A stretch of 64,000 nucleotides of DNA from the human T2T-CHM13v2.0 reference genome, Homo sapiens. The translations under genes and the position numbers were made by a program. A model generated the notes under the pieces. It had not been told where the DNA came from, made no database searches, and saw only the letters and a list, made by a program, of their open reading frames with translations. The DNA lies in assembly GCA_009914755.4 (NCBI GenBank), contig CP086569.2:30752001-30816000 (forward strand), written 5' to 3'. This document shows positions 1 to 52,644 of the stretch, one piece after another (position 1 is the first letter of the stretch; each line of letters starts with the position of its first letter).

Positions 1-45
1 GGAATCGAATGGAAAGGACTCGAATGGAAATCACTCGAATAGAAT
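1..45 (+). repeat. HOR unit, partial (3' end of upstream unit)
   Basis: Sequence upstream of first landmark 'gcaatttaataaaat' at 46; matches the tail of later units (e.g. 3524-3568). Confidence 0.8.
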
Positions 46-28438: not shown

Positions 28439-31400
28439 GCAATTTAATAAAATAGGATGAAATGTAATGGAATGGAATGGAAGGGAATCGAAACGAAAGG
28501 AATGGAGACAGATGGAATGGAATGGAACAGAGAGCAATGGTATAGAATGGAATGGAATCATCTGGAATGGAATTGAATGGCATGGAATAATATGAAATGG
28601 AATGGAATGGAATGGAATGGAATGCCCTTGAATTAAATGGACTGGAATGGAATGGACTCGAACAGAGTGGAATGGAAAGTGTTGAGATAGAATGGAATGG
28701 ACTCCTTTGGAATGGTGTAGTATGCAATGCAATCGACTGGCAGGGAATCAAAAGGAATGTAATCGAATGGATTGGACTGGAATGCAATGGACTCGAATAG
28801 ATTGCAAACGGAATGCAAAGGAATGGAATGGAATAGTATGGAATGGAATGGAAAGGAATGGAGTGGAATAGACTAGAGTGGAATGGAATGGACTGGAAAG
28901 CAATGGACTGGAATGGAACTTTCTTGAATGGACTGGAATCAAACGGAATGGAATGCAATGCAATCAAATGGCATGGAATAAAATAGAATGAAAGAGAATC
29001 AAATGGAATTGAATCGAATGGAATCGAATGGATTGGAAAGGAATAGAATGGAATGGAATGGAATGGACTCAAATGGAATGGACTAGAATGGAATGGATTC
29101 GAATGGAAGCCAAAGAATGGAATCTATTGGAATGGACTGTAATGGAATGGAATGGAAGGGATTGGAATGGACTCGAATGGAATGGACTGCAATAGAAAGG
29201 ATTCGAATGGAATGAAAAATAATTGAATGGAATAGAACAGAATGGAATCAAATCGAATGAAATGGAATGGAATAGAAAGGAATGGAATGAAATGGAATGG
29301 AAAGGATTTGAATGGAATGCAATCGAATGGAATGGAATCGAACGGAATGGAATAAAATGGAAGAAAACTGGCAAGAAATGGAATCGAAATGAATGGAGTG
29401 TTATGGAACGGACTCAAAAGGAATTGAATGTAATAGAATGGAGTGGAGTGGACTCGAATATAATGGACTGGAATGGAATGAAATCACATGGAATGGGAAT
29501 GAATGGAATGGAATGGAAAGGAATGGAATCGAATGGAAAGGAATCGAATGGAAGGGAATGAAATTGAATCAACAGGAATGGAAGGGAATAGAATAGACGG
29601 TAATGGAATGGACTCGAATAGAATGGACAGGAATGCTCAAATTGAATGGACTCGAATGGAATGGAAACGAAAGGAATGTCATCGAATGGAATTGAATCGA
29701 TTGGAATGAAATCGTATAGAATGCAGTGGAATCAAATGGAATTGAATCGAAAGGAAAGGAAGCAAATGGACTGAAATGAAATGGAATGGAATTGAATGGA
29801 AAGTTATGTAATGGAATAGAATGGAACGAAATTTCACGGAATGGAATCAAACTGAATGGAATCAAATCAATGGAATCAAATCAAATGGAATGGATAGGAA
29901 TTGAATGGAGTAGATTGGATTGGATGGGATTGGAATGAAATGTACTGGAAAGGACTCGAATTTCATGAAACGGAATGGAATGAATTGGAACGGAACGGAC
30001 TCGAATGGAATGGAATGTCATGGAATGGCATCAAATGGGATGGCATCAAATGGAATGGAATCGAATGCAATGGAATGCTATGGATTGGAATGGAATGCAT
30101 TGGAATGGAATGTCCTCTAATGGAATGGATTCGAGTGGAATGGAATCGAATATAATGGAGTCGAATGAAATGGAATTGAAAGGAATGGGATCGAATACAA
30201 TGGAATATACTGGAATGTAATGTAATGAACTCGAATGTAATTGACTGGAATGGAATGTACATGAATGGAATGTAATCGAATGGAAAGTAATCCAATGGAA
30301 TAGAATCTAATGCAATAAAATCGACTCAGATAGAGTAGAATGTAATGGAATGGAGTGCAGTGCAATGGAATGGAAAGGAATGGAATGCAATAGAATGGAA
30401 TGGAATGGAATGGAATGTAATGGAATGGAATGGAATGGAATGGAATGGTGTGGAATGGATAGTAATGGACTGGAGTGAAATGGACTGGAAAGGACTGGAC
30501 TCAAATTGAAAGGGCTCGAAAGGAATGGAGTCAAATGGAATGGTCTGGAATGGAATGAACACGAATGTAATGCAATCCAATAGAATGGAATCGAATGGCA
30601 TGGAATATAAAGAAATGGAATCGAAGAGAATGGAAACAAATGGAATGGAATTGAGTGGAATGGAATTGAATGGAATGGGAACGAATGGAGTGAAATTGTA
30701 TGCAGTAGAAGAGAATAGAATGGAATGCAAGCGAAAGGAAAGGAATGGATTGGAATGGAATGGAATTCATTGGAATGGAAGGGAATGTAGTGTAATGGAC
30801 AGGCCTGGAATAAAGTGGAATGCTACGGTCTCGAATGGAATAAAAATGTATGGAATGGAATGCAATGAAACGGAATCGAATGTCATAGAATGTAATGGAA
30901 TGCAAAAAAATGGAATCCAAAATCATTGACTGGAAAGGCTGGGTGTCGAAAGGAATTGACTCCAATGGAATGGAATCGAATGGAATGGAAGTGAATAGAA
31001 TCGAACTAAATCGAATGGAATGGAATTGATAGGAACGGAATGGAAAGGAATGCAATGATTTGGCATGGAATGGAATCGAATGGCATCGAATGGAATGGAA
31101 TGTAATGCAATGGAATGGAATGTATTAGAATGTAATGAACTTTAATGGAATGTACTCGAATGGATTCGACTGGAATGGAATGTTCTGGAAGTGAATGGAC
31201 TCCAATGGAATGGATTCCAAAGGAATGGAATCGTACGGAATGGAATCTAATGGAATGGAATTAAATGGAAATGAATCAAATTGAATAGCACGGAATTGAA
31301 TTGAATGAAATGGAATGCAATGGAATCTAATGAAACGGAAAGGAAAGGAATGGAATGGAATGGAATGGGCTGGAATGGAAAGGAATCGAAACGAATGGAA

Positions 31401-32006
31401 TGGAATCGAACTGAAGAGACTGGAATGGAATGCACTGGAATGGAAGGGAGTGTAATGGAAGGTTCTCGAAAAAAATGGAATCGAATGGAATGGAATTGAA
31501 TGGAACGGAATAGAGTCGAATGGAATTGAATGGAATGGAATGGACTAGAGTGAAATGGAATCGAACCACAAGGAATGGACAGGAATAGAATGGTCTCGAA
31601 TTGAATGGAATCGTATGGAATGGCATCAAACGGAATGGAATGGACAGCCACGGAATGGAATGCACTCGAATGCAATGGAGTCGAAACTAATGGACTGGAA
31701 TAGAATGGACTCGACTGGTACGGACTCCAATGGAATGGAATCGAATGGAAGGGAATCGAACGGAATGGACTCGAAGGGAAAAGACTGCAATGGAAAGGTC
31801 TCGAATGGAATGGAAATTAATGGAATGGAATGGAATCGAATGAAATGGAGTCAAAAGTAATGGAATCGAATGGCAAGAAATCGAATGTAATGGAATCACA
31901 AGGAATTGATGTGAACGGAACGGAATGGAATGGAATCCAAAGGAATGGAATAGAATGGAATGGAATCGAATGGAAAGGACTCGAATGGAAATCACTCGAA
32001 TAGAAT
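28439..32006 (+). repeat. HOR unit U9 (3568 bp)
   Basis: Landmark at 28439; GGCC at 30802; same private variants as U8 (~28578, ~29108). Confidence 0.85.
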
Positions 32007-35000
32007 GCAATTTAATAAAATAGGATAAAATGTAATGGAATGGAATGGAAGGGAATCGAAACGAAAGGAATGGAGACAGATGGAATGGAATGGAACAGAG
32101 AGCAATGGTATAGAATGGAATGGAATCATCTGGAATGGAATTGAATGGCATGGAATAATATGAAATGGAATGGAATGGAATGGAATGGAATGCCCTTGAA
32201 TTAAATGGACTGGAATGGAATGGACTCGAACAGAGTGGAATGGAAAGTGTTGAGATAGAATGGAATGGACTCCTTTGGAATGGTGTAGTATGCAATGCAA
32301 TCGACTGGCAGGGAATCAAAAGGAATGTAATCGAATGGATTGGACTGGAATGCAATGGACTCGAATAGATTGCAAACGGAATGCAAAGGAATGGAATGGA
32401 ATAGTATGGAATGGAATGGAAAGGAATGGAGTGGAATAGACTAGAGTGGAATGGAATGGACTGGAAAGCAATGGACTGGAATGGAACTTTCTTGAATGGA
32501 CTGGAATCAAACGGAATGGAATGCAATGCAATCAAATGGCATGGAATAAAATAGAATGAAAGAGAATCAAATGGAATTGAATCGAATGGAATCGAATGGA
32601 TTGGAAAGGAATAGAATGGAATGGAATGGAATGGACTCAAATGGAATGGACTAGAATGGAATGGATTCGAATGGAAGCCAAAGAATGGAATCTATTGGAA
32701 TGGACTGTAATGGAATGGAATGGAAGTGATTGGAATGGACTCGAATGGAATGGACTGCAATAGAAAGGATTCGAATGGAATGAAAAAGAATTGAATGGAA
32801 TAGAACAGAATGGAATCAAATCGAATGAAATGGAATGGAATAGAAAGGAATGGAATGAAATGGAATGGAAAGGATTCGAATGGAATGCAATCGAATGGAA
32901 TGGAATCGAACGGAATGGAATAAAATGGAAGAAAACTGGCAAGAAATGGAATCGAAATGAATGGAGTGTTATGGAACGGACTCAAAAGGAATTGAATGTA
33001 ATAGAATGGAGTGGAGTGGACTCGAATATAATGGACTGGAATGGAATGAAATCACATGGAATGGGAACGAATGGAATGGAATGGAAAGGAATGGAATCGA
33101 ATGGAAAGGAATCGAATGGAAGGGAATGAAATTGAATCAACAGGAATGGAAGGGAATAGAATAGACGGTAATGGAATGGACTCGAATAGAATGGACACGA
33201 ATGCTCAAATTGAATGGACTCGAATGGAATGGAAACGAAAGGAATGTCATCGAATGGAATTGAATCGATTGGAATGAAATCGCATAGAATGGAGTGGAAT
33301 CAAATGGAATTGAATCGAAAGGAAAGGAAGCGAATGGACTGAAATGAAATGGAATGGAATTGAATGGAAAGTAATGCAATGGAATAGAATGGAACGAAAT
33401 TTCACGGAATGGAATCAAACTGAATGGAATCAAATCAATGGAATCCAATCAAATGGAATGGAGTAGATTGGATTGGATGGGATTGGAATGAAATGTACTG
33501 GAAAGGACTCGAATTTCATGAAACGGAATGGAATGAATTGGAACGGAATGGACTCGAATGGAATGGAATGACATGGAATGGCATCAAATGGAATGGCATC
33601 AAATGGAATGGAATCGAATGCAATGGAATGCTATGGAAGGGAATGGAATGCATTGGAATGGAATGTCCTCTAATGGAATGGATTCGAGTGGAATGGAATC
33701 GAATATAATGGAGTCGAATGAAATGGAATTGAAAGGAATGGGATCGAATACAATGGAATATACTGGAATGTAATGTAATGAACTCGAATGTAATTGACTG
33801 GAATGGAATGTACATGAATGGAATGTAATCGAATGGAAAGTAATCCAATGGAATAGAATCTAATGCAATAAAATCGACTCAGATAGAGTAGAATGTAATG
33901 GAATGGAGTGCAGTGCAATGGAATGGAATGGAATGGAATGCAATTGAATGGAATGGAATGGAATGGAATGGAATGGAATGGAATGGAATGGGATGGAATG
34001 GTATGGAATGGATAGTAATGGACTGGAGTGAAATGGACTGGAAAGGAATGGACTCAAATTGAAAGGGCTCGAAAGGAATGGAGTCAAATGGAATGGTCTG
34101 GAATGGAATGAACAAGAATGTAATGCAATCCAATAGAATGGAATCGAATGACATGGAATATAAAGAAATGGAATCGGAGAGAATGGAAACAAATGGAATT
34201 GAATTGAATGGAATGGAATTGAATGGTATGGGAACGAATGGAGTGAAATTGTATGCAGTAGAAGGGAATAGAATGGAATGCAAGCGAAAGGAAAGGAATG
34301 GATTGGAATGGAATGGAATTCATTGGAATGGAAGGGAATGTAGTGTAATGGACAGGCCTGGAATAAAGTGGAATGCTACGGTCTCGAATGGAATAAAAAT
34401 GTATGGAATGGAATGCAATGAAATGGAATCGAATGTCATAGAATGTAATGGAATGCAACAAAATGGAATCCAAAATCATTGACTGGAAAGGCTGGGTGTC
34501 GAAAGGAATTGACTCCAATGGAATGGAATCGAATGGAATGGAAGTGAATAGAATCGAACTAAATCGAATGGAATGGAATTGATAGGAACGGAATGGAAAG
34601 GAATGCAATGATTTGGCATGGAATGGAATCGAATGGCATCGAATGGAATGGAATGGAATGCAATGGAATGGAATGTATTAGAATGTAATGAACTTTAATG
34701 GAATGTACTCGAATGGATTCGACTGGAATGGAATGTTCTGGAAGTGAATGGACTCCAATGGAATGGATTCCAAAGGAATGGAATCGTACGGAATGGAATC
34801 TAATGGAATGGAATTAAATGGAAATGAATCAAATTGAATAGCACGGAATTGAATTGAATGGAATGGAATGCAATGGAATCTAATGAAACGGAAAGGAAAG
34901 GAATGGAATGGAATGGAATGGGCTGGAATGGAAAGGAATCGAAACGAATGGAATGGAATCGAACTGAAGAGACTGGAATGGAATGCACTGGAATGGAAGG

Positions 35001-36974
35001 GAGTGTAATGGAAGGTTCTCGAAAAAAATGGAATCGAATGGAATGGAATTGAATGGAACGGAATAGAGTCGAATGGAATTGAATGGAATGGAATGGACTA
35101 GAGTGAAATGGAATCGAACCACAAGGAATGGACATGAATAGAATGGTCTCGAATTGAATGGAATCGTATGGAATGGCATCAAACGGAATGGAATGGACAG
35201 CCACGGAATGGAATGCACTCGAATGCAATGGAGTCGAAACTAATGGACTGGAATAGAATGGACTCGACTGGTACGGACTCCAATGGAATGGAATCGAATG
35301 GAAGGGAATCGAACGGAATGGACTCGAAGGGAAAAGACTGCAATGGAAAGGTCTCGAATGGAATGGAAATTAATGGAATGGAATGGAATCGAATGAAATG
35401 GAGTCAAAAGGAATGGAATCGAATGGCAAGAAATCGAATGTAATGGAATCACAAGGAATTGATGTGAACGGAACGGAATGGAATGGAATCCAAAGGAATG
35501 GAATAGAATGGAATGGAATCGAATGGAAAGGACTCGAATGGAAATCACTCGAATAGAATGCAATTTAATAAAATAGGATAAAATGTAATGGAATGGAATG
35601 GAAGGGAATCGAAACGAAAGGAATGGAGACAGATGGAATGGAATGGAACAGAGAGCAATGGTATAGAATGGAATGGAATCATCTGGAATGGAATTGAATG
35701 GAATGGAATAATATGAAATGGAATGGAATGGAATTCATTGGAATGGAAGGGAATGTAGTGTAATGGACAGGCCTGGAATAAAGTGGAATGCTACGGTCTC
35801 GAATGGAATAAAAATGTATGGAATGGAATGCAATGAAACGGAATCGAATGTCATAGAATGTAATGGAATGCAAAAAAATGGAATCCAAAATCATTGACTG
35901 GAAAGGCTGGGTGTCGAAAGGAATTGACTCCAATGGAATGGAATCAAATGGAATGGAAGTGAATAGAATCGAACTAAATCGAATGGAATGGAATTGATAG
36001 GAACGGAATGGAAAGGAATGCAATGATTTGGCATGGAATGGAATCGAATGGCATCGAATGGAATGGAATGGAATGCAATGGAATGGAATGTATTAGAATG
36101 TAATGAACTTTAATGGAATGTACTCGAATGGATTCGACTGGAATGGAATGTTCTGGAAGTGAATGGACTCCAATGGAATGGATTCAAAAGGAATGGAATC
36201 GTACAGAATGGAATCTAATGGAATGGAATTAAATGGAAATGAATCAAATTGAATAGCACGGAATTGAATTGAATGAAATGGAATGCAATGGAATCTAATG
36301 AAACGGAAAGGAAAGGAATGGAATGGAATGGAATGGGCTGGAATGGAAAGGAATCGAAACGAATGGAATGGAATCGAACTGAAGAGACTGGAATGGAATG
36401 CACTGGAATGGAAGGGAGTGTAATGGAAGGTTCTCGAAAAAAATGGAATCGAATGGAATGCAATTGAATGGAACGGAATAGAGTCGAATGGAATTGAATG
36501 GAATGGAATGGACTAGAGTGAAATGGAATCGAACCACAAGGAATGGACAGGAATAGAATGGTCTCGAATTGAATGGAATCGTATGGAATGGCATCAAACG
36601 GAATGGAATGGACAGCCACGGAATGGAATGCACTCGAATGCAATGGAGTCGAAACTAATGGACTGGAATAGAATGGACTCGACTGGTACGGACTCCAATG
36701 GAATGGAATCGAATGGAAGGGAATCGAACGGAATGGACTCGAAGGGAAAAGACTGCAATGGAAAGGTCTCGAATGGAATGGAAATTAATGGAATGGAATG
36801 GAATCGAATGAAATGGAGTCAAAAGTAATGGAATCGAATGGCAGGAAATCGAATGTAATGGAATCGCAAGGAATTGATGTGAACGGAACGGAATGGAATG
36901 GAATCCAAAGGAATGGAATAGAATGGAATGGAATCGAATGGAAAGGACTCGAATGGAAATCACTCGAATAGAAT
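32007..36974 (+). repeat. HOR unit U10, long variant (4968 bp) containing a 1.415-kb internal tandem duplication
   Basis: Landmark at 32007, repeated inside the duplication at 35560 and 36975 (+1415). GGCC at 34355 and 35770 (+1415). Junction at ~35721-35735 within shared 'atggaatggaatggaat'. Confidence 0.85.
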
Positions 36975-37145
36975 GCAATTTAATAAAATAGGATCAAATG
37001 TAATGGAATGGAATGGAAAGGAATCGAAACGAAAGGAATGGAGACAGATGGAATGGAATGGAACAGAGAGCAATGGTATAGAATGGAATGGAATCATCTG
37101 GAATGGAATTGAATGGAATGGAATAATATGAAATGGAATGGAATG
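35731..37145 (+). repeat. Second copy of the 1.415-kb intra-unit tandem duplication (first copy ~34316-35730)
   Basis: 'ggaattcattgg' at 34315-34326 recurs at 35730-35741. 'ggaataatatg' ends at 35715 and again at 37130. The pseudo-ORF 34800..35228 repeats at 36215..36643 (+1415). Confidence 0.85.
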
Positions 37146-40100
37146 GAATGGAATGGAATGGAATGGAATGCCCTTGAATTAAATGGACTGGAATGGAATG
37201 GACTCAAACAGAGTGGAATGGAAAGTGTTGAGATAGAATGGAATGGACTCCTTTGGAATGGTCTAGTATGCAATGCAATCGACTGGTAGGGAATCAAAAG
37301 GAATGTAATCGAATGGATTGGACTGGAATGCAATGGACTCGAATAGATTGGAAACGGAATGCAAAGGAATGGAATGGAATAGTATGGAATGGAATGGAAA
37401 GGAATGGAGTGGAATAGACTAGAGTGGAATGGAATGGACTGGAAAGCAATGGACTGGAATGGAACTTTCTTGAATGGACTGGAATCAAACGGAATGGAAT
37501 GCAATGCAATCAAATGGCATGGAATAAAATAGAATGAAAGAGAATCAAATGGAATTGAATCGAATGGAATCGAATGGATTGGAAAGGAATAGAATGGAAT
37601 GGAATGGAATTGACTCAAATGGAATGGACTAGAATGGAATGGATTCGAATGGAAGGCAAAGGAATGGAATCTATTGGAATGGACTGTAATGGAATGGAAT
37701 GGAAGGGATTGGAATGGACTCGAATGGAATGGACTGCAATAGAAAGGATTCGAATGGAATGAAAAAGAATTGAATGGAATAGAACAGAATGGAATCAAAT
37801 CGAATGAAATGGAATGGAATAGAAAGGAATGGAATGAAATGGAATGGAAAGGATTCGAATGGAATGCAATCGAATGGAATGGAATCGAACGGAATGGAAT
37901 AAAATGGAAGAAAACTGGCAAGAAATGGAATCGAAATGAATGGAGTGTTATGGAACGGACTCAAAAGGAATTGAATGTAATAGAATGGAGTGGAGTGGAC
38001 TCGAATATAATGGACTGGAATGGAATGAAATCACATGGAATGGGAACGAATGGAATGGAATGGAAAGGAATGGAATCGAATGGAAAGGAATCGAATGGAA
38101 GGGAATGAAATTGAATCAACAGGAATGGAAGGGAATAGAATAGACGGTAATGGAATGGACTCGAATAGAATGGACACGAATGCTCAATTTGAATGGACTC
38201 GAATGGAATGGAAACGAAAGGAATGTCATCGAATGGAATTGAATCGATTGGAATGAAATCGCATAGAATGGAGTGGAATCAAATGGAATTGAATCGAAAG
38301 GAAAGGAAGCGAATGGACTGAAATGAAATGGAATGGAATTGAATGGAAAGTAATGCAATGGAATAGAATGGAACGAAATTTCACGGAATGGAATCAAACT
38401 GAATGGAATCAAATCAATGGAATCTAATCAAATGGAATGGAAAGGAATTGAATGGAGTAGATTGGATTGGATGGGATTGGAATGAAATGTACTGGAAAGG
38501 ACTCGAATTTCATGAAACGGAATGGAATGAATTGGAACGGAATGGACTCGAATGGAATGGAATGTCATGGAATGGCATCAAATGGAATGGCATCAAATGG
38601 AATGGAATCGAATGCAATGGAATGTTATGGAATGGAATGGAATGCATTGGAATGGAATGTCCTCTAATGGAATGGATTCGAGTGGAATGGAATCGAATAT
38701 AATGGAGTCGAATGAAATGGAATTGAAAGGAATGGGATCGAATCGAATGGAATATACTGGAATGTAATGTAATGAACTCGAATGTAATTGACTGGAATGG
38801 AATGTACATGAATGGAAGGTAATCGAATGGAAAGTAATCCAATGGAATAGAATCTAATGCAATAAAATCGACTCAGATAGAGTAGAATGTAATGGAATGG
38901 AGTGCAGTGCAATGGAATGGAATGGAATTGAATGCAATGGAATGGAATGGAATGGAATGGAATGGAATGGAATGGAATGGAATGGGATGGAATGGTATGG
39001 AATGGATAGTAATGGACTGGAGTGAAATGGACAGGAAAGGAATGGACTCAAATTGAAAGGGCTCGAAAGGAATGGAGTCAAATGGAATGGTCTGGAATGG
39101 AATGAACACGAATGTAATGCAATCCAATAGAATGGAATCGAATGGCATGGAATATAAAGAAATGGATTCGAAGAGAATGGAAACAAATGGAATGGAATTG
39201 AATGGAATGGAATTGAATGGAATGGGAACGAATGGAGTGAAATTGTATGCAGTAGAAGGGAATAGAATGGAATGCAAGCGAAAGGAAAGGAATGGATTGG
39301 AATGGAATGGAATTCATTGGAATGGAAGGGAATGTAGTGTAATGGACAGGCCTGGAATAAAGTGGAATGCTACGGTCTCGAATGGAATAAAAATGTATGG
39401 AATGGAATGCAATGAAACGGAATCGAATGTCATAGAATGTAATGGAATGCAACAAAATGGAATCCAAAATCATTGACTGGAAAGGCTGGGTGTCGAAAGG
39501 AATTGACTCCAATGGAATGGAATCGAATGGAATGGAAGTGAATAGAATCGAACTAAATCGAATGGAATGGAATTGATAGGAACGGAGTGGAAAGGAATGC
39601 AATGATTTGGCATGGAATGGAATCGAATGGCATCGAATGGAATGGAATGGAATGCAATGGAATGGAATGTATTAGAATGTAATGAACTTTAATGGAACAT
39701 ACTCGAATGGATTCGACTGGAATGGAATGTTCTGGAAGTGAATGGACTCCAATGGAATGGATTCAAAAGGAATGGAATTGTACGGAATGGAATCTAATGG
39801 AATGGAATTAAATGGAAATGAATCAAATTGAATAGCACGGAATTGAATTGAATGGAATGGAATGCAATGGAATCTAATGAAACGGAAAGGAAAGGAATGG
39901 AATGGAATGGAATGGGCTGGAATGGAAAGGAATCGAAACGAATGGAATGGAATCGAACTGAAGAGACTGGAATGGAATGCACTGGAATGGAAGGGAGTGT
40001 AATGGAAGGTTCTCGAAAAAAATGGAATCGAATGGAATGGAATTGAATGGAACGGAATAGAGTCGAATGGAATTGAATGGAATGGAATGGACTAGAGTGA

Positions 40101-40553
40101 AATGGAATCGAACCACAAGGAATGGACAGGAATAGAATGGTCTCGAATTGAATGGAATCGTATGGAATGGCATCAAACGGAATGGAATGGACAGCCACGG
40201 AATGGAATGCACTCGAATGCAATGGAGTCGAAACTAATGGACTGGAATAGAATGGACTCGACTGGTACGGACTCCAATGGAATGGAATCGAATGGAAGGG
40301 AATCGAACGGAATGGACTCGAAGGGAAAAGACTGCAATGGAAAGGTCTCGAATGGAATGGAAATTAATGGAATGGAATGGAATCGAATGAAATGGAGTCA
40401 AAAGGAATGGAATCGAATGGCAAGAAATCGAATGTAATGGAATCGCCAGGAATTGATGTGAACGGAACGGAATGGAATGGAATCCAAAGGAATGGAATAG
40501 AATGGAATGGAATCGAATGGAAAGGACTCGAATGGAAATCACTCGAATAGAAT
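36975..40553 (+). repeat. HOR unit U11 (3579 bp)
   Basis: Landmark at 36975; GGCC at 39349. Private variants 'gctcaatttgaatgg' (~38177) and 'gggatcgaatcgaatgg' (~38738). Confidence 0.85.
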
Positions 40554-43500
40554 GCAATTTAATAAAATAGGATCAAATGTAATGGAATGGAATGGAAAGG
40601 AATCGAAACGAAAGGAATGGAGACAGATGGAATGGAATAGAACAGCGAGCAATGGTATAGAATGGAATGGAATCATCTGGAATGGAATTGAATGGAATGG
40701 AATAATATGAAATGGAATGGAATGGAATGGAATGGAATGGAATGCCCTTGAATTAAATGGACTGGAATGGAATGGACTCGAACAGAGTGGAATGGAAAGT
40801 GTTGAGATAGAATGGAATGGACTCCTTTGGAATGGTGTAGTATGCAATGCAATCGACTGGCAGGGAATCAAATGGAATGTAATCGAATGGATTGGACTGG
40901 AATGCAATGGACTCGAATAGATTGCAAACGGAATGCAAAGGAATGGAATGGAATAGTATGGAATGGAATGGAAAGGAATGGAGTGGAATAGACTAGAGTG
41001 GAATGGAATGGACTGGAAAGCAATGGACTGGAATGGAACTTTCTTGAATGGACTGGAATCAAACGGAATGGAATGCAATGCAATCAAATGGCATGGAATA
41101 AAATAGAATGAAAGAGAATCAAATGGAATTGAATCGAATGGAATCGAATGGATTGGAAAGGAATAGAATGGAATGGAATGGAATGGACTCAAATGGAATG
41201 GACTAGAATGGAATGGATTCGAATGGAAGGCAAAGGAATGGAATCTATTGGAATGGACTGTAATGGAATGGAATGGAAGGGATTGGAATGGACTCGAATG
41301 GAATGGACTGCAATAGAAAGGATTCGAATGGAATGAAAAAGAATTGAATGGAATAGAACAGAATGGAATCAAATCGAATGAAATGGAATGGAATAGAAAG
41401 GAATGGAATGAAATGGAATGGAAAGGATTCGAATGGAATGCAATCAAATGGAATGGAATCGAACGGAATGGAATAAAATGGAAGAAAACTGGCAAGAAAT
41501 GGAATCGAAATGAATGGAGTGTTATGGAACGGACTCAAAAGGAATTGAATGTAATAGAATGGAGTGGAGTGGACTCGAATATAATGGACTGGAATGGAAT
41601 GAAATCACATGGAATGGGAACGAATGGAATGGAATGGAAAGGAATGGAATCGAATGGAAAGGAATCGAATGGAAGGGAATGAAATTGAATCAACAGGAAT
41701 GGAAGGGAATAGAATAGACGGCAATGGAATGGACTCGAATAGAATGGACACGAATGCTCAAATTGAATGGACTCGAATGGAATGGAAACGAAAGGAATGT
41801 CATCGAATGGAATTGAATCGATTGGAATGAAATCGCATAGAATGGAGTGGAATCAAATGGAATTGAATCGAAAGGAAAGGAAGCGAATGGACTGAAATGA
41901 AATGGAATGGAATTGAATGGAAAGTAATGCAATGGAATAGAATGGAACGAAATTTCACGGAATGGAATCAAACTGAATGGAATCAAATCAATGGAATCAA
42001 ATCAAATGAATGGAAAGGAATTGAATGGAGTAGATTGGATTGGATGGGATTGGAATGAAATGTACTGGAAAGGACTCGAATTTCATGAAACGGAATGGAA
42101 TGAATTGGAACGGAATGGACTCGAATGGAATGGAATGACATGGAATGGCATCAAATGGAATGGCATCAAATGGAATGGAATCGAATGCAATGGAATGCTA
42201 TGGAAGGGAATGGAATGCATTGGAATGGAATGTCCTCTAATGGAATGGATTCGAGTGGAATGGAATCGAATATAATGGAGTCGAATGAAATGGAATTGAA
42301 AGGAATGGGATCGAATACAATGGAATATACTGGAATGTAATGTAATGAACTCGAATGCAATTGACTGGAATGGAATGTACATGAATGGAATGTAATCGAA
42401 TGGAAAGTAATCCAATGGAATAGAATCTAATGCAATAAAATCGACTCAGATAGAGTAGAATGTAATGGAATGGAGTGCAGTGCAATGGAATGGAATGGAA
42501 TGGAATGCAATTGAATGGAATGGAATGGAATGGAATGGAATGGAATGGAATGGGATGGAATGGTATGGAATGGATAGTAATGGACTGGAGTGAAATGGAC
42601 TGGAAAGGAATGGACTCAAATTGAAAGGGCTCGAAAGGAATGGAGTCAAATGGAATGGTCTGGAATGGAATGAACAAGAATGTAATGCAATCCAATAGAA
42701 TGGAATCGAATGACATGGAATATAAAGAAATGGAATCGGAGAGAATGGAAACAAATGGAATTGAATTGAATGGAATGGAATTGAATGGTATGGGAACGAA
42801 TGGAGTGAAATTGTATGCAGTAGAAGGGAATAGAATGGAATGCAAGCGAAAGGAAAGGAATGGATTGGAATGGAATGGAATTCATTGGAATGGAAGGGAA
42901 TGTAGTGTAATGGACAGGCCTGGAATAAAGTGGAATGCTACGGTCTCGAATGGAATAAAAATGTATGGAATGGAATGCAATGAAATGGAATCGAATGTCA
43001 TAGAATGTAATGGAATGCAACAAAATGGAATCCAAAATCATTGACTGGAAAGGCTGGGTGTCGAAAGGAATTGACTCCAATGGAATGGAATCGAATGGAA
43101 TGGAAGTGAATAGAATCGAACTAAATCGAATGGAATGGAATTGATAGGAACGGAATGGAAAGGAATGCAATGATTTGGCATGGAATGGAATCGAATGGCA
43201 TCGAATGGAATGGAATGGAATGCAATGGAATGGAATGTATTAGAATGTAATGAACTTTAATGGAATGTACTCGAATGGATTCGACTGGAATGGAATGTTC
43301 TGGAAGTGAATGGACTCCAATGGAATGGATTCCAAAGGAATGGAATCGTACGGAATGGAATCTAATGGAATGGAATTAAATGGAAATGAATCAAATTGAA
43401 TAGCACGGAATTGAATTGAATGGAATGGAATGCAATGGAATCTAATGAAACGGAAAGGAAAGGAATGGAATGGAATGGAATGGGCTGGAATGGAAAGGAA

Positions 43501-45536
43501 TCGAAACGAATGGAATGGAATCGAACTGAAGAGACTGGAATGGAATGCACTGGAATGGAAGGGAGTGTAATGGAAGGTTCTCGAAAAAAATGGAATCGAA
43601 TGGAATGGAATTGAATGGAACGGAATAGAGTCGAATGGAATTGAATGGAATGGAATGGACTAGAGTGAAATGGAATCGAACCACAAGGAATGGACATGAA
43701 TAGAATGGTCTCGAATTGAATGGAATCGTATGGAATGGCATCAAACGGAATGGAATGGACAGCCACGGAATGGAATGCACTCGAATGCAATGGAGTCGAA
43801 ACTAATGGACTGGAATAGAATGGACTCGACTGGTACGGACTCCAATGGAATGGAATCGAATGGAAGGGAATCGAACGGAATGGACTCGAAGGGAAAAGAC
43901 TGCAATGGAAAGGTCTCGAATGGAATGGAAATTAATGGAATGGAATGGAATCGAATGAAATGGAGTCAAAAGGAATGGAATCGAATGGCAAGAAATCGAA
44001 TGTAATGGAATCACAAGGAATTGATGTGAACGGAACGGAATGGAATGGAATCCAAAGGAATGGAATAGAATGGAATGGAATCGAACGGAAAGGACTCGAA
44101 TGGAAATCACTCTAATAGAATGCAATTTAATAAAATAGGATAAAATGTAATGGAATGGAATGGAAGGGAATCGAAACGAAAGGAATGGAGACAGATGGAA
44201 TGGAATGGAACAGAGAGCAATGGTATAGAATGGAATGGAATCATCTGGAATGGAATTGAATGGAATGGAATAATATGAAATGGAATGGAATGGAATTCAT
44301 TGGAATGGAAGGGAATGTAGTGTAATGGACAGGCCTGGAATAAAGTGGAATGCTACGGTCTCGAATGGAATAAAAATGTATGGAATGGAATGCAATGAAA
44401 CGGAATCGAATGTCATAGAATGTAATGGAATGCAAAAAAATGGAATCCAAAATCATTGACTGGAAAGGCTGGGTGTCGAAAGGAATTGACTCCAATGGAA
44501 TGGAATCAAATGGAATGGAAGTGAATAGAATCGAACTAAATCGAATGGAATGGAATTGATAGGAACGGAATGGAAAGGAATGCAATGATTTGGCATGGAA
44601 TGGAATCGAATGGCATCGAATGGAATGGAATGGAATGCAATGGAATGGAATGTATTAGAATGTAATGAACTTTAATGGAATGTACTCGAATGGATTCGAC
44701 TGGAATGGAATGTTCTGGAAGTGAATGGACTCCAATGGAATGGATTCAAAAGGAATGGAATCGTACAGAATGGAATCTAATGGAATGGAATTAAATGGAA
44801 ATGAATCAAATTGAATAGCACGGAATTGAATTGAATGAAATGGAATGCAATGGAATCTAATGAAACGGAAAGGAAAGGAATGGAATGGAATGGAATGGGC
44901 TGGAATGGAAAGGAATCGAAACGAATGGAATGGAATCGAACTGAAGAGACTGGAATGGAATGCACTGGAATGGAAGGGAGTGTAATGGAAGGTTCTCGAA
45001 AAAAATGGAATCGAATGGAATGCAATTGAATGGAACGGAATAGAGTCGAATGGAATTGAATGGAATGGAATGGACTAGAGTGAAATGGAATCGAACCACA
45101 AGGAATGGACAGGAATAGAATGGTCTCGAATTGAATGGAATCGTATGGAATGGCATCAAACGGAATGGAATGGACAGCCACGGAATGGAATGCACTCGAA
45201 TGCAATGGAGTCGAAACTAATGGACTGGAATAGAATGGACTCGACTGGTACGGACTCCAATGGAATGGAATCGAATGGAAGGGAATCGAACGGAATGGAC
45301 TCGAAGGGAAAAGACTGCAATGGAAAGGTCTCGAATGGAATGGAAATTAATGGAATGGAATGGAATCGAATGAAATGGAGTCAAAAGTAATGGAATCGAA
45401 TGGCAAGAAATCGAATGTAATGGAATCGCAAGGAATTGATGTGAACGGAACGGAATGGAATGGAATCCAAAGGAATGGAATAGAATGGAATGGAATCGAA
45501 TGGAAAGGACTCGAATGGAAATCACTCGAATAGAAT
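40554..45536 (+). repeat. HOR unit U12, long variant (4983 bp) with the same 1.415-kb internal tandem duplication
   Basis: Landmark at 40554, duplicated landmarks at 44122 and 45537 (+1415). GGCC at 42917 and 44332 (+1415). Junction at ~44283-44297 in the same microhomology as U10. Confidence 0.85.
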
Positions 45537-45707
45537 GCAATTTAATAAAATAGGATCAAATGTAATGGAATGGAATGGAAAGGAATCGAAACGAAAGGAA
45601 TGGAGACAGATGGAATGGAATGGAACAGAGAGCAATGGTATAGAATGGAATGGAATCATCTGGAATGGAATTGAATGGAATGGAATAATATGAAATGGAA
45701 TGGAATG
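44293..45707 (+). repeat. Second copy of the 1.415-kb intra-unit tandem duplication (first copy ~42878-44292)
   Basis: 'ggaattcattgg' at 42877-42888 and 44292-44303. 'aatatg' ends at 44277 and 45692. The pseudo-ORF 43362..43790 repeats at 44777..45205. Confidence 0.85.
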
Positions 45708-48700
45708 GAATGGAATGGAATGGAATGGAATGCCCTTGAATTAAATGGACTGGAATGGAATGGACTCGAACAGAGTGGAATGGAAAGTGTTGAGATAGAA
45801 TGGAATGGACTCCTTTGGAATGGTCTAGTATGCAATGCAATCGACTGGTAGGGAATCAAAAGGAATGTAATCGAATGGATTGGACTGGAATGCAATGGAC
45901 TCGAATAGATTGGAAACGGAATGCAAAGGAATGGAATGGAATAGTATGGAATGGAATGGAAAGGAATGGAGTGGAATAGACTAGAGTGGAATGGAATGGA
46001 CTGGAAAGCAATGGACTGGAATGGAACTTTCTTGAATGGACTGGAATCAAACGGAATGGAATGCAATGCAATCAAATGGCATGGAATAAAATAGAATGAA
46101 AGAGAATCAAATGGAATTGAATCGAATGGAATCCAATGGATTGGAAAGGAATAGAATGGAATGGAATGGAATTGACTCAAATGGAATGGACTAGAATGGA
46201 ATGGATTCGAATGGAAGGCAAAGGAATGGAATCTATTGGAATGGACTGTAATGGAATGGAATGGAAGGGATTGGAATGGACTCGAATGGAATGGACTGCA
46301 ATAGAAAGGATTCGAATGGAATGAAAAAGAATTGAATGGAATAGAACAGAATGGAATCAAATCGAATGAAATGGAATGGAATAGAAAGGAATGGAATGAA
46401 ATGGAATGGAAAGGATTCGAATGGAATGCAATCGAATGGAATGGAATCGAACGGAATGGAATAAAATGGAAGAAAACTGGCAAGAAATGGAATCGAAATG
46501 AATGGAGTGTTATGGAACGGACTCAAAAGGAATTGAATGTAATAGAATGGAGTGGAGTGGACTCGAATATAATGGACTGGAATGGAATGAAATCACATGG
46601 AATGGGAACGAATGGAATGGAATGGAAAGGAATGGAATCGAATGGAAAGGAATCGAATGGAAGGGAATGAAATTGAATCAACAGGAATGGAAGGGAATAG
46701 AATAGACGGTAATGGAATGGACTCGAATAGAATGGACACGAATGCTCAATTTGAATGGACTCGAATGGAATGGAAACGAAAGGAATGTCATCGAATGGAA
46801 TTGAATCGATTGGAATGAAATCGCATAGAATGGAGTGGAATCAAATGGAATTGAATCGAAAGGAAAGGAAGCGAATGGACTGAAATGAAATGGAATGGAA
46901 TTGAATGGAAAGTAATGCAATGGAATAGAATGGAACGAAATTTCACGGAATGGAATCAAACTGAATGGAATCAAATCAATGGAATCAAATCAAATGGAAT
47001 GGAAAGGAATTGAATGGAGTAGATTGGATTGGATGGGATTGGAATGAAATGTACTGGAAAGGACTCGAATTTCATGAAACGGAATGGAATGAATTGGAAC
47101 GGAATGGACTCGAATGGAATGGAATGTCATGGAATGGCATCAAATGGAATGGCATCAAATGGAATGGAATCGAATGGAATGGAATGCATTGGAATGGAAT
47201 GTCCTCTAATGGAATGGATTCGAGTGGAATGGAATCGAATATAATGGAGTCGAATGAAATGGAATTGAAAGGAATGGGATCGAATACAATGGAATATACT
47301 GGAATGTAATGTAATGAACTCGAATGTAATTGACTGGAATGGAATGTACGTGAATGGAATGTAATCGAATGGAAAGTAATCCAATGGAATAGAATCTAAT
47401 GCAATAAAATCGACTCAGATAGAGTAGAATGTAATGGAATGGAGTGCAGTGCAATGGAATGGAATGGAATGGAATGCAATTGAATGGAATGGAATGGAAT
47501 GGAATGGAATGGAATGGGATGGAATGGTATGGAATAGATAGTAATGGACTGGAGTTAAATGGACTGGAAAGGAATGGACTCAAATTGAAAGGGCTCGAAA
47601 GGAATGGAGTCAAATGGAATGGTCTGGAATGGAATGAACACGAATGTAATGCAATCCAATAGAATGGAATCGAATGGCATGGAATATAAAGAAATGGAAT
47701 CAGAGAGAATGGAAACAAATGGAATGGAATTGAATGGAATGGAATTGAATGGAATGGGAACGAATGGAGTGAAATTGTATGCAGTATAAGGGAATAGAAT
47801 GGAATGCAAGCGAGAGGAAAGGAATGGATTGGAATGGAATGGAATTCATTGGAATGGAAGGGAATGTAGTGTAATGGACAGGCCTGGAATAAAGTGGAAT
47901 GCTACGGTCTCGAATGGAATAAAAATGTATGGAATGGAATGCAATGAAATGGAATCGAATGTCATAGAATGTAATGGAATGCAACAAAATGGAATCCAAT
48001 ATCATTGACTGGAAAGGCTGGGTGTCGAAAGGAATTGACTCCAATGGAATGGAATCGAATGGAATGGAAGTGAATAGAATCGAACTAAATCGAATGGAAT
48101 GGAATTGATAGGAACGGAATGGAAAGGAATGCAATGATTTGGCATGGAATGGAATCGAATGGCATCGAATGGAATGGAATGGAATGCAATGGAATGGAAT
48201 GTATTAGAATGTAATGAACTTTAATGGAATGTACTCGAATGGATTCGACTGGAATGGAATGTTCTGGAAGTGAATGGACTCCAATGGAATGGATTCAAAA
48301 GGAATGGAATCGTACGGAATGGAATCTAATGGAATGGAATTAAATGGAAATGAATCAAATTGAATAGCACGGAATTGAATTGAATGGAATGGAATGCAAT
48401 GGAATCTAATGAAACGGAAAGGAAAGGAATGGAATGGAATGGAATGGGCTGGAATGGAAAGGAATCGAAACGAATGGAATGGAATCGAACTGAAGAGACT
48501 GGAATGGAATGCACTGGAATGGAAGGGAGTGTAATGGAAGGTTCTCGAAAAAAATGGAATCGAATGGAATGGAATTGAATGGAACGGAATAGAGTCGAAT
48601 GGAATTGAATGGAATGGAATGGACTAGAGTGAAATGGAATCGAACCACAAGGAATGGAGAGGAATAGAATGGTCTCGAATTGAATGGAATCGTATGGAAT

Positions 48701-49085
48701 GGCATCAAACGGAATGGAATGGACAGCCACGGAATGGAATGCACTCGAATGCAATGGAGTCGAAACTAATGGACTGGAATAGAATGGACTCGACTGGTAC
48801 GGACTCCAATGGAATGGAATCGAATGGAAGGGAATCGAACGGAATGGACTCGAAGGGAAAAGACTGCAATGGAAAGGTCTCGAATGGAATGGAAATTAAT
48901 GGAATGGAATGGAATCGAATGAAATGGAGTCAAAAGGAATGGAATCGAATGGCAAGAAATCGAATGTAATGGAATCGCAAGGAATTGATGTGAACGGAAC
49001 GGAATGGAATGGAATCCAAAGGAATGGAATAGAATGGAATGGAATCGAATGGAAAGGACTCGAATGGAAATCACTCGAATAGAAT
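45537..49085 (+). repeat. HOR unit U13 (3549 bp); carries a 20-bp pentamer-phase deletion
   Basis: Landmark at 45537; GGCC at 47881. At ~47171 'cgaatggaatggaatgcattgg' replaces the usual 'cgaatgcaatggaatgctatggaatggaatggaatgcattgg'. Shares 'gctcaatttgaatgg' (~46747) with U11. Confidence 0.85.
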
Positions 49086-52000
49086 GCAATTTAATAAAAT
49101 AGGATCAAATGTAATGGAATGGAATGGAAAGGAATCGAAACGAAAGGAATGGAGACAGATGGAATGGAATGGAACAGAGAGCAATGGTATAGAATGGAAT
49201 GGAATCATCTGGAATGGAATTGAATGGAATGGAATAATATGAAATGGAATGGAATGGAATGGAATGGAATGCCCTTGAATTAAATGGACTGGAATGGAAT
49301 GGACTCGAACAGAGTGGAATGGAAAGTGTTGAGATAGAATGGAATGGACTCCTTTGGAATGGTCTAGTATGCAATGCAATCGACTGGCAGGGAATCAAAA
49401 GGAATGTAATCGAATGGATTGGACTGGAATGCAATGGACTCGAATAGATTGGAAACGGAATGCAAAGGAATGGAATGGAATAGTATGGAATGGAATGGAA
49501 AGGAATGGAGTGGAATAGACTAGAGTGGAATGGAATGGACTGGAAAGCAATGGACTGGAATGGAACTTTCTTGAATGGACTGGAATCAAACGGAATGGAA
49601 TGCAATGCAATCAAATGGCATGGAATAAAATAGAATGAAAGAGAATCAAATGGAATTGAATCGAATGGAATCGAATGGATTGGAAAGGAATAGAATGGAA
49701 TGGAATGGAATTGACTCAAATGGAATGGACTAGAATGGAATGGATTCGAATGGAAGGCAAAGGAATGGAATCTATTGGAATGGACTGTAATGGAATGGAA
49801 TGGAAGGGATTGGAATGGACTCGAATGGAATGGACTGCAATAGAAAGGATTCGAATGGAATGAAAAAGAATTGAATGGAATAGAACAGAATGGAATCAAA
49901 TCGAATGAAATGGAATGGAATAGAAAGGAATGGAATGAAATGGAATGGAAAGGATTCGAATGGAATGCAATCGAATGGAATGGAATCGAACGGAATGGAA
50001 TAAAATGGAAGAAAACTGGCAAGAAATGGAATCGAAATGAATGGAGTGTTATGGAACGGACTCAAAAGGAATTGAATGTAATAGAATGGAGTGGAGTGGA
50101 CTCGAATATAATGGACTGGAATGGAATGAAATCACATGGAATGGGAACGAATGGAATGGAATGGAAAGGAATGGAATCGAATGGAAAGGAATCGAATGGA
50201 AGGGAATGAAATTGAATCAACAGGAATGGAAGGGAATAGAATAGACGGTAATGGAATGGACTCGAATAGAATGGACACGAATGTTCAAATTGAATGGACT
50301 CGAATGGAATGGAAACGAAAGGAATGTCATCGAATGGAATTGAATCGATTGGAATGAAATCGCATAGAATGGAGTGGAATCAAATGGAATTGAATCGAAA
50401 GGAAAGGAAGCGAATGGACTGAAATGAAATGGAATGGAATTGAATGGAAAGTAATGCAATGGAATAGAATGGAACGAAATTTCACGGAATGGAATCAAAC
50501 TGAATGGAATCAAATCAATGGAATCAAATCAAATGGAATGGAAAGGAATTGAATGGAGTAGATGGGATTGGATGGGATTGGAATGAAATGTACTGGAAAG
50601 GACTCGAATTTCATGAAACGGAATGGAATGAATTGGAACGGAATGGACTCGAATGGAATGGAATGTCATGGAATGGCATCGAATGGAATGGCATCAAATG
50701 GAATGGAATCGACTGCAATGGAATGTTATGGAATGGAATGGAATGCATTGGAATGGAATGTCCTCTAATGGAATGGATTCGAGTGGAATGGAATCGAATA
50801 TAATGGAGTCGAATGAAATGGAATTGAAAGGAATGGGATCGAATAGAATGGAATATACTGGAATGTAATGTAATGAACACGAATGTAATTGACTGGAATG
50901 GAATGTACATGAATGGAAGGTAATCGAATGGAAAGTAATCCAATGGAATAGAATCTAATGCAATAAAACCGACTCAGATAGAGTAGAATGTAATGGAATG
51001 GAGTGCAGTGCAATGGAATGGAATGGAATTGAATGCAATGGAATGGAATGGAATGGAATGGAATGGGATGGAATGGGATGGAATGGTATGGAATGGATAG
51101 AAATGGACTGGAGTGAAATGGACTGGAAAGGAATGCACTCAAATTGAAAGGGCTCGAAAGGAATGGAGTCAAATGGAATGGTCTGGAATGGAATGAACAC
51201 GAATGTAATGCAATCCAATAGAATGGAATCGAATGGCATGGAATATAAAGAAATGGATTCGAAGAGAATGGAAACAAATGGAATGGAATTGAATGGAATG
51301 GAATTGAATGGAATGGGAACGAATGGAGTGAAATTGTATGCAGTAGAAGGGAATAGAATGGAATGCAAGCGAAAGGAAAGGAATGGATTGGAATGGAATG
51401 GAATTCATTGGAATGGAAGGGAATGTAGTGTAATGGACAGGCCTGGAATAAAGTGGAATGCTACGGTCTCGAATGGAATAAAAATGTATGGAATGGAATG
51501 CAATGAAACGGAATCGAATGTCATAGAATGTAATGGAATGCAAAAAAATGGAATCCAAAATCATTGACTGGAAAGGCTGGGTGTCGAAAGGAATTGACTC
51601 CAATGGAATGGAATCGAATGGAATGGAAGTGAATAGAATCGAACTAAATCGAATGGAATGGAATTGATAGGAACGGAATGGAAAGGAATGCAATGATTTG
51701 GCATGGAATGGAATCGAATGGCATCGAATGGAATGGAATGGAATGCAATGGAATGGAATGTATTAGAATGTAATGAACTTTAATGGAACGTACTCGAATG
51801 GATTCGACTGGAATGGAATGTTCTGGAAGTGAATGGACTCCAATGGAATGGATTCAAAAGGAATGGAATTGTACGGAATGGAATCTAATGGAATGGAATT
51901 AAATGGAAATGAATCAAATTGAATAGCACGGAATTGAATTGAATGGAATGGAATGCAATGGAATCTAATGAAACGGAAAGGAAAGGAATGGAATGGAATG

Positions 52001-52644
52001 GAATGGGCTGGAATGGAAAGGAATCGAAACGAATGGAATGGAATCGAACTGAAGAGACTGGAATGGAATGCACTGGAATGGAAGGGAGTGTAATGGAAGG
52101 TTCTCGAAAAAAATGGAATCGAATGGAATGGAATTGAATGGAACGGAATAGAGTCGAATGGAATTGAATGGAATGGAATGGACTAGAGTGAAATGGAATC
52201 GAACCACAAGGAATGGACAGGAATAGAATGGTCTCGAATTGAATGGAATCGTATGGAATGGCATCAAACGGAATGGAATGGACAGCCACGGAATGGAATG
52301 CACTCGAATGCAATGGAGTCGAAACTAATGGACTGGAATAGAATGGACTCGACTGGTACGGACTCCAATGGAATGGAATCGAATGGAAGGGAATCGAACG
52401 GAATGGACTCGAAGGGAAAAGACTGCAATGGAAAGGTCTCGAATGGAATGGAAATTAATGGAATGGAATGGAATCGAATGAAATGGAGTCAAAAGGAATG
52501 GAATCGAATGGCAAGAAATCGAATGTAATGGAATCGCAAGGAATTGATGTGAACGGAACGGAATGGAATGGAATCCAAAGGAATGGAATAGAATGGAATG
52601 GAATCGAATGGAAAGGACTCGAATGGAAATCACTCGAATAGAAT
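49086..52644 (+). repeat. HOR unit U14 (3559 bp)
   Basis: Landmark at 49086; GGCC at 51440. Confidence 0.85.

What the first reader, a model, noticed from the sequence alone, without database searches (positions are those of the whole stretch)
32007..49085. Candidate ~8.56-kb two-unit super-repeat (long-form unit + normal unit) present twice
Landmark spacings 35560 to 44122 (8562), 36975 to 45537 (8562) and 40554 to 49086 (8532) suggest that [U10+U11] and [U12+U13] are two copies of a larger repeat. The copies share private variants in addition to the duplication. For U10/U12 these are 'gaatgaacaagaatg' (34111/42671), 'aatcgaatgacatgg' (34141/42701), 'aatggaattgaattgaatgg' (34191/42751), 'gaatggtatgggaacg' (34221/42781) and the MTWNG/LWKGMEC pseudo-ORF variants (33558/42125). 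For U11/U13 they are 'gctcaatttgaatgg' (38177/46747) and the FKLS variant (38116../46678..). The copies are not identical, however. At ~33445 U10 has a 15-bp deletion that U12 lacks, and at 41991 U12 has a 5-bp deletion that U10 lacks. U13 also has a 20-bp deletion at ~47171 that U11 lacks. The duplication is therefore not recent, or later conversion has overlaid it.
Basis: inference. Interest (0 to 1): 0.5.

Follow-up and report, generated by a model that had tools for sequence, protein, structure and literature searches.

The report
Copied long unit in Y-chromosome satellite

Summary
The 64-kb window is one uninterrupted array of the human Yq12 satellite DYZ1 (HSat3A6). It is built from GGAAT pentamers, has a ~3.55-kb unit with one HaeIII site, and published DYZ1 primers match once per unit.

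Both have the same junction, which sits in a 16-bp pentamer microhomology.

The 8,562-bp spacing and every listed private variant are real. The near-identity covers only about 33.4-38.4 kb versus 42.0-47.0 kb: 7 substitutions, about 0.13-0.2%, rank 1 of 120 comparable segment pairs. That is roughly one long-form period.

The other ~3.5 kb of the 8.56-kb period diverges at background level (0.9-1.2%) and groups with other units. So this is not a clean two-unit super-repeat.

The best reading is a recombinational copy of the long-form unit, made after the 1,415-bp duplication. It looks conversion-like or like a one-period insertion, placed into an older A-B unit pattern. An 8.56-kb unequal crossover that was later overwritten remains possible.

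This is a known kind of satellite dynamics and of low interest.

The parts
1..64000 (+). Uninterrupted DYZ1 (HSat3A6) satellite array, with the GGAAT-rich strand as +. It holds 17 full ~3.52-3.58-kb units plus two 1,415-bp extras. Unit starts are at 44, 3564, 7087, 10667, 14224, 17789, 21327, 24871, 28434, 32001, (35554), 36970, 40549, (44116), 45532, 49081, 52641, 56184, 59733 and 63286.
33456..38424 (+). Core copy 1 (L1), a long-form unit read from unit column ~1456. It is near-identical to core copy 2. The left edge lies somewhere in 32728-33571 and the right edge in 38188-38624.
42023..46986 (+). Core copy 2 (L2), 8562-8567 bp downstream of copy 1.
34304..35718 (+). Copy A1 of the 1,415-bp intra-unit tandem duplication. 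It spans the last ~1.26 kb of a unit plus the first ~0.15 kb of the next.
35719..37133 (+). Copy B1 of the 1,415-bp duplication. It has 13 differences from A1 and 1 difference from B2.
42866..44280 (+). Copy A2, with 2 differences from A1.
44281..45695 (+). Copy B2.
35711..35741 (+). Duplication junction 31-mer ATATGAAATGGAATGGAATGGAATTCATTGG. The A-to-B join lies inside the 16-bp microhomology TGGAATGGAATGGAAT. The 31-mer occurs only here and at 44273-44303.
44273..44303 (+). Second, identical copy of the junction 31-mer.
38425..42022 (+). Ordinary unit between the two cores (P11, type B). It is not related to its 8.56-kb partners. Its closest relative is 50526-54090 (P14, 0.56%).
46987..54090 (+). 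P13 (type A, no 1,415-bp duplication) followed by P14 (type B). They differ from L1 and P11 by 0.65% and 0.56%, which suggests an older two-unit A-B relationship.

Best explanation
The window is part of a human Y-chromosome (Yq12) DYZ1/HSat3A6 satellite array.

Step 1. An out-of-register exchange between two different units joined them within a 16-bp run of GGAAT pentamers. This created a 1,415-bp tandem duplication and a 4.97-kb long-form unit.

Step 2. Later, this long-form unit was copied to a position one ordinary unit downstream. The copied tract is 4.6-5.9 kb, which is compatible with exactly one long-form period.

The copy is bounded on both sides by sequence of different ancestry. The most economical mechanism is therefore a non-reciprocal, homology-driven transfer. 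This could be long-tract gene conversion (repair of a related 'type A' unit using the long-form unit as template) or insertion of one period. A clean 8.56-kb unequal crossover fits less well.

After the copy, each version gained a few private point mutations and pentamer-multiple slippage indels.

Shown: the satellite's identity, the anatomy of the duplication, the order of the two events, the extent of the copied tract and the mosaic ancestry of the flanks. Inferred: the molecular mechanism and direction of the transfer, and its age.

The confidence given applies to the full statement including the non-reciprocal mechanism. The DYZ1 identity and the copy relationship of the two long-form units are each about 0.95.
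For: Identity as DYZ1:
- TRF gives a GGAAT-derived consensus across 77-64000.
- The period is 3520-3580 bp.
- There is one GGCC (HaeIII) site per unit, giving 3524-3579-bp fragments, against the published 3564/3569-bp HaeIII unit (PMC3925983; 10.1101/2022.12.01.518658).
- GC is 0.38-0.40, against the published 38%.
- Published DYZ1 primers match once per unit: C, D, E and F exactly, A within 2 mismatches and G within 1. Primer B matches exactly in only 2 units.
- Six human-contaminant contigs found in 'bacterial' assemblies are 98.5-99.5% identical to units in the window.

Order of events:
- Copies A and B differ at 13-14 sites, 12 of them shared by both blocks. A1/A2 differ at 2 sites and B1/B2 at 1.

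Extent of the copy:
- There are 7 substitutions in the ~5-kb core against 33 in the remaining 3.4 kb.
- The core pair differs by 0.19%, rank 1 of 120, against a median of 1.18%.
- The +8.56-kb partner is the best hit only for 33.2-38.4 kb.
- Every substitution inside the tract has one allele seen in no other unit, apart from the A>C at 33446 that U10 shares with U17. In the flanks most differences have both alleles shared with other units.

Mosaic ancestry:
- Bootstrap support for S10-S13 is 200/200 in columns 1431-end and 0/200 in columns 0-1431. S12-S15 is 166/200 in columns 0-1431 and 0/200 in columns 1431-end.
- Read from unit column 1456, the array is A^ B A^ A B, with L1-L2 at 0.20%, L1-P13 at 0.65% and P11-P14 at 0.56%.

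Literature: intra-array gene conversion, non-allelic homologous recombination (NAHR) and slippage are documented in Yq12 (PMC13252187; 10.1101/2022.12.01.518658; 10.1101/2022.12.01.518724).
Against: - A conversion tract of ~5 kb that also carries a 1.4-kb insertion is long by mammalian standards.
- The left boundary is resolved only to 32728-33571, because unit columns 740-1590 vary little.
- U10, but not U12, shares an A>C change plus a 15-bp deletion with U17. This requires an extra small event or a boundary to the right of 33455.
- A single window cannot separate one non-reciprocal event from a duplication followed by overwriting.
- Chromosomal origin is inferred from sequence features, not from mapping. 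No human genome could be searched.
Confidence: 0.55

Rival explanations
1. A single unequal sister-chromatid exchange duplicated the whole 8.56-kb block (long-form unit plus normal unit). Later conversions or exchanges overwrote about 3.4 kb of it.
For: - The spacing is a constant 8562 bp across the core.
- Whole-unit identities rank 2nd and 4th of 136 pairs.
- Neighbouring sequence shows recent local homogenisation that could have done the overwriting. S8 and S9 differ by 0.28%, and that similarity extends into the first ~0.7-0.9 kb of S10.
- Unequal exchange is the published model for Yq12 (10.1101/2022.12.01.518724).
Against: - It needs at least two events where one suffices.
- The non-core part of the period is at background divergence on both sides: 0.93% and 1.22%.
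- The variant 'duplication plus later insertion of one unit' predicts that P11/P14 should be the same age as L1/L2. P11/P14 have 20-22 substitutions against 7 over similar lengths. In the hypervariable unit zone the counts are 11 against 2.
Confidence: 0.3
2. Assembly artefact. The second long-form unit is a false duplication introduced when long reads through a near-identical satellite were assembled.
For: Satellite arrays are prone to errors of this kind. No read data were available to check.
Against: The two copies are not identical: 7 substitutions plus indels of 15, 5 and 1 bp. They also sit in flanks of clearly different ancestry. A false duplication would normally be identical and would duplicate its flanks.
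Confidence: 0.04
3. Independent recurrence. The same 1,415-bp duplication arose twice at a slippage-prone pentamer site, and the shared variants are coincidental.
For: The junction lies in a (GGAAT)3 microhomology that could favour recurrence.
Against: - Twelve A/B-distinguishing sites are shared by both blocks.
- Seven or more variants shared only by the two cores lie outside the duplication, namely columns 1596-2257 and column 1219.
- There are exact repeats of 1573 and 1292 bp.
Confidence: 0.01

Closest known systems
Human DYZ1 / HSat3A6 satellite of Yq12 (3.56-kb HaeIII repeat)
   Same: It shares the pentamer (GGAAT/TTCCA) origin, the ~3.55-kb unit, the single HaeIII site, ~38% GC and the published primer sites. 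Units are 98-99% identical to each other, as reported for T2T-Y.
   Different: Two units carry a 1,415-bp internal tandem duplication, giving a 4.97-kb long form and an extra 1,415-bp HaeIII fragment. I did not find this variant described in the papers I read.
Local expansion and homogenisation of satellite arrays by unequal exchange, NAHR or gene conversion, as described for Yq12, DYZ19 and centromeric alpha satellite
   Same: Near-identical copies lie at a spacing that is a whole number of units. Unit ancestry is mosaic. Indels are multiples of the 5-bp monomer.
   Different: The copied tract is shorter than the spacing (about 5 of 8.56 kb). It therefore does not look like the simple iterative tandem duplications illustrated for T2T-Y.
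Multi-unit higher-order repeats (for example alpha-satellite HORs)
   Same: A structural variant recurs at a spacing longer than the basic unit. There is also a weaker, older A-B alternation between unit types.
   Different: There are only two copies. The intervening and following normal units are not homologous partners, and no periodic array of the 8.56-kb block exists in the window.

Membership tests
DYZ1 / HSat3A6 | Derived from tandem GGAAT (CATTC/TTCCA) pentamers | tested here: met
   TRF reports consensus GAATGGAATGGAATG with periods 15 and 25 across 77-64000. Strand asymmetry is strong.
DYZ1 / HSat3A6 | Nested higher-order unit of ~3.56-3.6 kb | tested here: met
   Anchor spacing is 3520-3580 bp for 17 units. 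The k-mer offset peaks lie at 3523-3579.
DYZ1 / HSat3A6 | One HaeIII (GGCC) site per unit, giving ~3.56-kb fragments | tested here: met
   Virtual digestion gives fragments of 3524-3579 bp, two of 1415 bp and one of 7147 bp where a site is lost.
DYZ1 / HSat3A6 | Sequence match to published DYZ1 primers and clones | tested here: met
   Primers A and C-G from Table 5 of PMC3925983 hit once per unit with 0-2 mismatches. Primer B matches exactly in only 2 units. The Kogan-type primers I recalled from memory also hit once per unit, but I could not verify them in the literature.
DYZ1 / HSat3A6 | Location in Yq12, interspersed with DYZ2/HSat1B blocks | not testable with these tools
   The window contains no flanking non-DYZ1 sequence, and no human genome database was available.
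Whole-period tandem duplication by unequal crossover (8.56 kb) | Uniformly elevated identity across the entire repeat period | tested here: not met
   The core differs by 0.13-0.2%, but the remaining ~3.4 kb differs by 0.93-1.22%, which is background.
Gene-conversion-like non-reciprocal transfer | A near-identical tract bounded on both sides by sequence of different ancestry (phylogenetic incongruence across the breakpoints) | tested here: met
   Partitioned NJ bootstraps change from 200/200 to 0/200 for S10-S13 and from 166/200 to 0/200 for S12-S15. Allele-sharing patterns agree.
Gene-conversion-like non-reciprocal transfer | Identifiable donor and acceptor, with the acceptor's previous state known | not testable with these tools
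   This needs other Y haplotypes or pedigree data.
Two-unit higher-order repeat | Both members of the dimer are more similar to their counterparts one period away than to other units | tested here: not met
   L1-L2 differ by 0.20%, but P11-P13 differ by 0.90%. P11's nearest relative is P14.

The most novel reading that the evidence does not exclude
The copied tract may be exactly one long-form period (4.97 kb) with both edges at the same unit phase, column ~1456. That would mean the long-form unit spreads as a discrete element, for example by excision and reintegration of a one-period circle or by repeated template-directed repair, rather than by classical unequal crossover. It would then be a traceable marker of non-reciprocal spread inside Yq12 heterochromatin.
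Probability: 0.15. Interest if true: 0.4.

Novelty: already known. Interest (0 to 1): 0.12.

Why it matters
The main value is as a clean negative. The apparent 8.56-kb super-repeat reduces to one structural variant of the DYZ1 unit that was copied once.

There is a modest positive use. The 1,415-bp duplication junction is a unique 31-mer that marks these units. It could trace how variants spread inside Yq12 arrays across Y haplogroups, and it could separate conversion from unequal exchange in a region where both are known to act.

Tried and rejected
- The strongest k-mer offset peak, at 34857 bp, looked like a long-range duplication. It only reflects indels cancelling out, because S5/S16 and S6/S17 are not unusually similar.
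- The model '8.56-kb duplication plus later insertion of one unit' was rejected. P11/P14 have about three times as many substitutions as L1/L2.
- I worked through several single unequal-crossover schemes by hand. None yields the observed order A^ B A^ A B.
- Rfam search of 30-51 kb found no RNA family.
- ORFs of up to 318 aa are low-complexity translations of the pentamer, overlapping in several frames, and are not genes.
- The junction 31-mer was searched in genome contigs and metagenome contigs and gave 0 hits. This is a weak negative, because short-read assemblies collapse the satellite. A DYZ1 control pattern did find six contaminant contigs.
- A literature search for the Kogan-type primer strings found nothing.
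- MAFFT misaligned the two 1,416-bp partial segments S11 and S14, so I analysed them by fixed-offset comparison instead.
Full report
**What the window is**

The whole 64 kb has uniform composition: GC 0.38-0.40 and GC skew about +0.55. Tandem Repeats Finder reads it as one array derived from GGAAT pentamers.

A 40-mer anchor recurs every 3520-3580 bp, and k-mer offset peaks agree. There is one HaeIII GGCC site per unit, giving virtual fragments of 3524-3579 bp.

This matches the published description of DYZ1/HSat3A6 of human Yq12:
- a ~3.5-3.6-kb nested repeat of the pentamer;
- a 3564/3569-bp HaeIII unit;
- 38% GC.

The sources are 10.1101/2022.12.01.518724, 10.1101/2022.12.01.518658 and PMC3925983.

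Published DYZ1 primers (PMC3925983, Table 5) hit once per unit: C, D, E and F exactly, A within 2 mismatches and G within 1. Primer B matches exactly in only 2 units.

A control pattern retrieved six contigs from 'bacterial' assemblies. They are 98.5-99.5% identical to units in the window, which fits contamination by a high-copy human male sequence.

Chromosomal position could not be tested directly.

**Anatomy of the 'long-form' unit**

A fixed-offset comparison shows that 34304-35718 and 35719-37133 are a 1,415-bp tandem duplication, about 99% identical. The same holds for 42866-44280 and 44281-45695.

It takes the last ~1.26 kb of one unit and the first ~0.15 kb of the next.

The join lies in the 16-bp microhomology TGGAATGGAATGGAAT. 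The junction 31-mer occurs only at 35711 and 44273.

Copies A and B differ at 13-14 sites, which is background divergence. The duplication was therefore either old or made between two different units. Because the HaeIII site lies inside the duplicated segment, each long form yields an extra 1,415-bp HaeIII fragment.

**Checking the observation**

The landmark spacings and all quoted private variants are real. Each variant occurs exactly twice in 64 kb. The two longest exact repeats in the window, 1573 and 1292 bp, lie at offset 8562.

Twelve of the A/B differences are shared by both blocks. A1/A2 differ at 2 sites and B1/B2 at 1, so the tree is ((A1,A2),(B1,B2)). The long-form unit was copied after the 1,415-bp duplication arose.

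One detail is wrong. The '5-bp deletion at 41991' is a 1-bp deletion near 42008.

**Extent of the copy**

Global alignment of 32001-40548 with 40549-49080 gives 40 substitutions (0.47%) and 7 indels, unevenly spread:
- about 7 substitutions between 33.2 and 38.4 kb;
- 33 substitutions in the remaining 3.4 kb.

Window-by-window BLAST shows the +8.56-kb partner is the best match only from about 33.2 to 38.4 kb. Upstream, the best partners are the units at -3568 and -7131. Downstream, they are the units at +12.09 kb and -22.76 kb.

I compared all equivalent composite segments in the window:
- The core pair differs by 0.19%, rank 1 of 120, with a median of 1.18%.
- The rest of the period differs from its 8.56-kb partners by 0.93% (rank 13) and 1.22% (rank 71).

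Partitioned neighbour-joining bootstraps show clear incongruence:

| Pair | Columns 0-1431 | Columns 1431-end |
|---|---|---|
| S10-S13 | 0/200 | 200/200 |
| S12-S15 | 166/200 | 0/200 |
| S13-S17 | 167/200 | 0/200 |
| S12-S16 | 0/200 | 160/200 |
| S6-S15 | 0/200 | 148/200 |

Inside the tract, every substitution has one allele seen in no other unit, apart from the A>C at 33446 that U10 shares with U17. This is what mutation after the copy would produce. In the flanks, both alleles are usually shared with other units.

Alleles shared only by the two cores bound the tract to a left edge in 32728-33571 and a right edge in 38188-38624. The tract is therefore 4.6-5.9 kb, compatible with exactly one 4.97-kb long-form period.

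**Re-phased view**

Reading units from column 1456, the array is P1-P4, P5 (B-like), P6 (A), P7-P9 (a local family, with P8/P9 at 0.42%), L1 (A with duplication), P11 (B), L2 (A with duplication), P13 (A), P14 (B), P15, P16.

- L1-L2 differ by 0.20%.
- L1 and L2 differ from P13 and P6 by 0.57-0.76%.
- P11-P14 differ by 0.56%.

There is evidence for an older two-unit A-B relationship, [L1 P11] versus [P13 P14], at about 0.6%. L2 sits within it as a younger copy of L1.

I could not derive the order A^ B A^ A B from any single unequal crossover. Those always give a perfect duplicate of the whole period. The model 'duplication plus later one-unit insertion' fails because P11/P14 carry about three times the substitutions of L1/L2.

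**Mechanism**

The most economical reading is a non-reciprocal, homology-driven copy of about one long-form unit. This could be long-tract conversion of a related type-A unit or insertion of one period.

It needs more events but is not excluded. Recent local homogenisation is visible immediately upstream, where S8 and S9 differ by 0.28% and the similarity reaches into S10.

NAHR, slippage and intra-array gene conversion are all documented for Yq12. Sister-chromatid exchange is also seen there.

An assembly artefact is unlikely, because the copies differ and their flanks have different ancestry. Reads were not available to confirm this.

**Comparison and verdict**

This is a known satellite behaving in a known way. 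I did not find the specific 1,415-bp-duplication variant described in the papers I read, but it is a minor structural variant and not a new kind of feature.

No RNA family or credible coding sequence is present.

Noticed in passing
window 24871-32700: Units S8 and S9 are the most similar pair in the window: 0.28% divergence and a 1127-bp exact repeat at offset 3568. The similarity continues into the first ~0.7-0.9 kb of S10. This points to a separate, recent single-unit expansion immediately upstream of the first long-form unit.
   Followed up: partly
S13, the near-identical copy of S10, lacks both. This suggests a short conversion patch or recurrent pentamer slippage.
   Followed up: partly
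window 13020-13042: The HaeIII site is lost in unit S4 (GGCC to GGTC on the + strand). This gives a 7147-bp double-unit HaeIII fragment.
   Followed up: no
L001-L006 (e.g. BMRF01000076.1 Actinomadura cremea JCM 3308; CAYVXY010000078.1 Polyangiaceae MAG): Six contigs deposited as bacterial genome sequence are 98.5-99.5% identical to DYZ1 units over up to 3637 bp. They are human male DNA contamination, assembled as roughly one collapsed satellite unit.
   Followed up: partly
whole window; unit columns ~1450-2100 and the unit start: Divergence between units is very uneven along the unit. Median pairwise differences are 12-18 per 600 bp in these zones and 1-5 elsewhere. Nearly all indels are multiples of 5 bp (5, 10, 15, 20).
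   Followed up: no
window 33456-42022 versus 46987-54090: An older two-unit (type A then type B) relationship exists at about 0.6% divergence (L1-P13 0.65%, P11-P14 0.56%). P5-P6 (about 15.7-22.8 kb) look like a B-A pair of the same types. This hints at a faint dimeric pattern beneath the recent copy.
   Followed up: partly
window 31687-32640, 40539-41495 (- strand) and others: Open reading frames of up to 318 aa encode (IPFHS)n-like low-complexity strings. They overlap in several frames on both strands and are a by-product of the stop-poor pentamer, not genes.
   Followed up: partly
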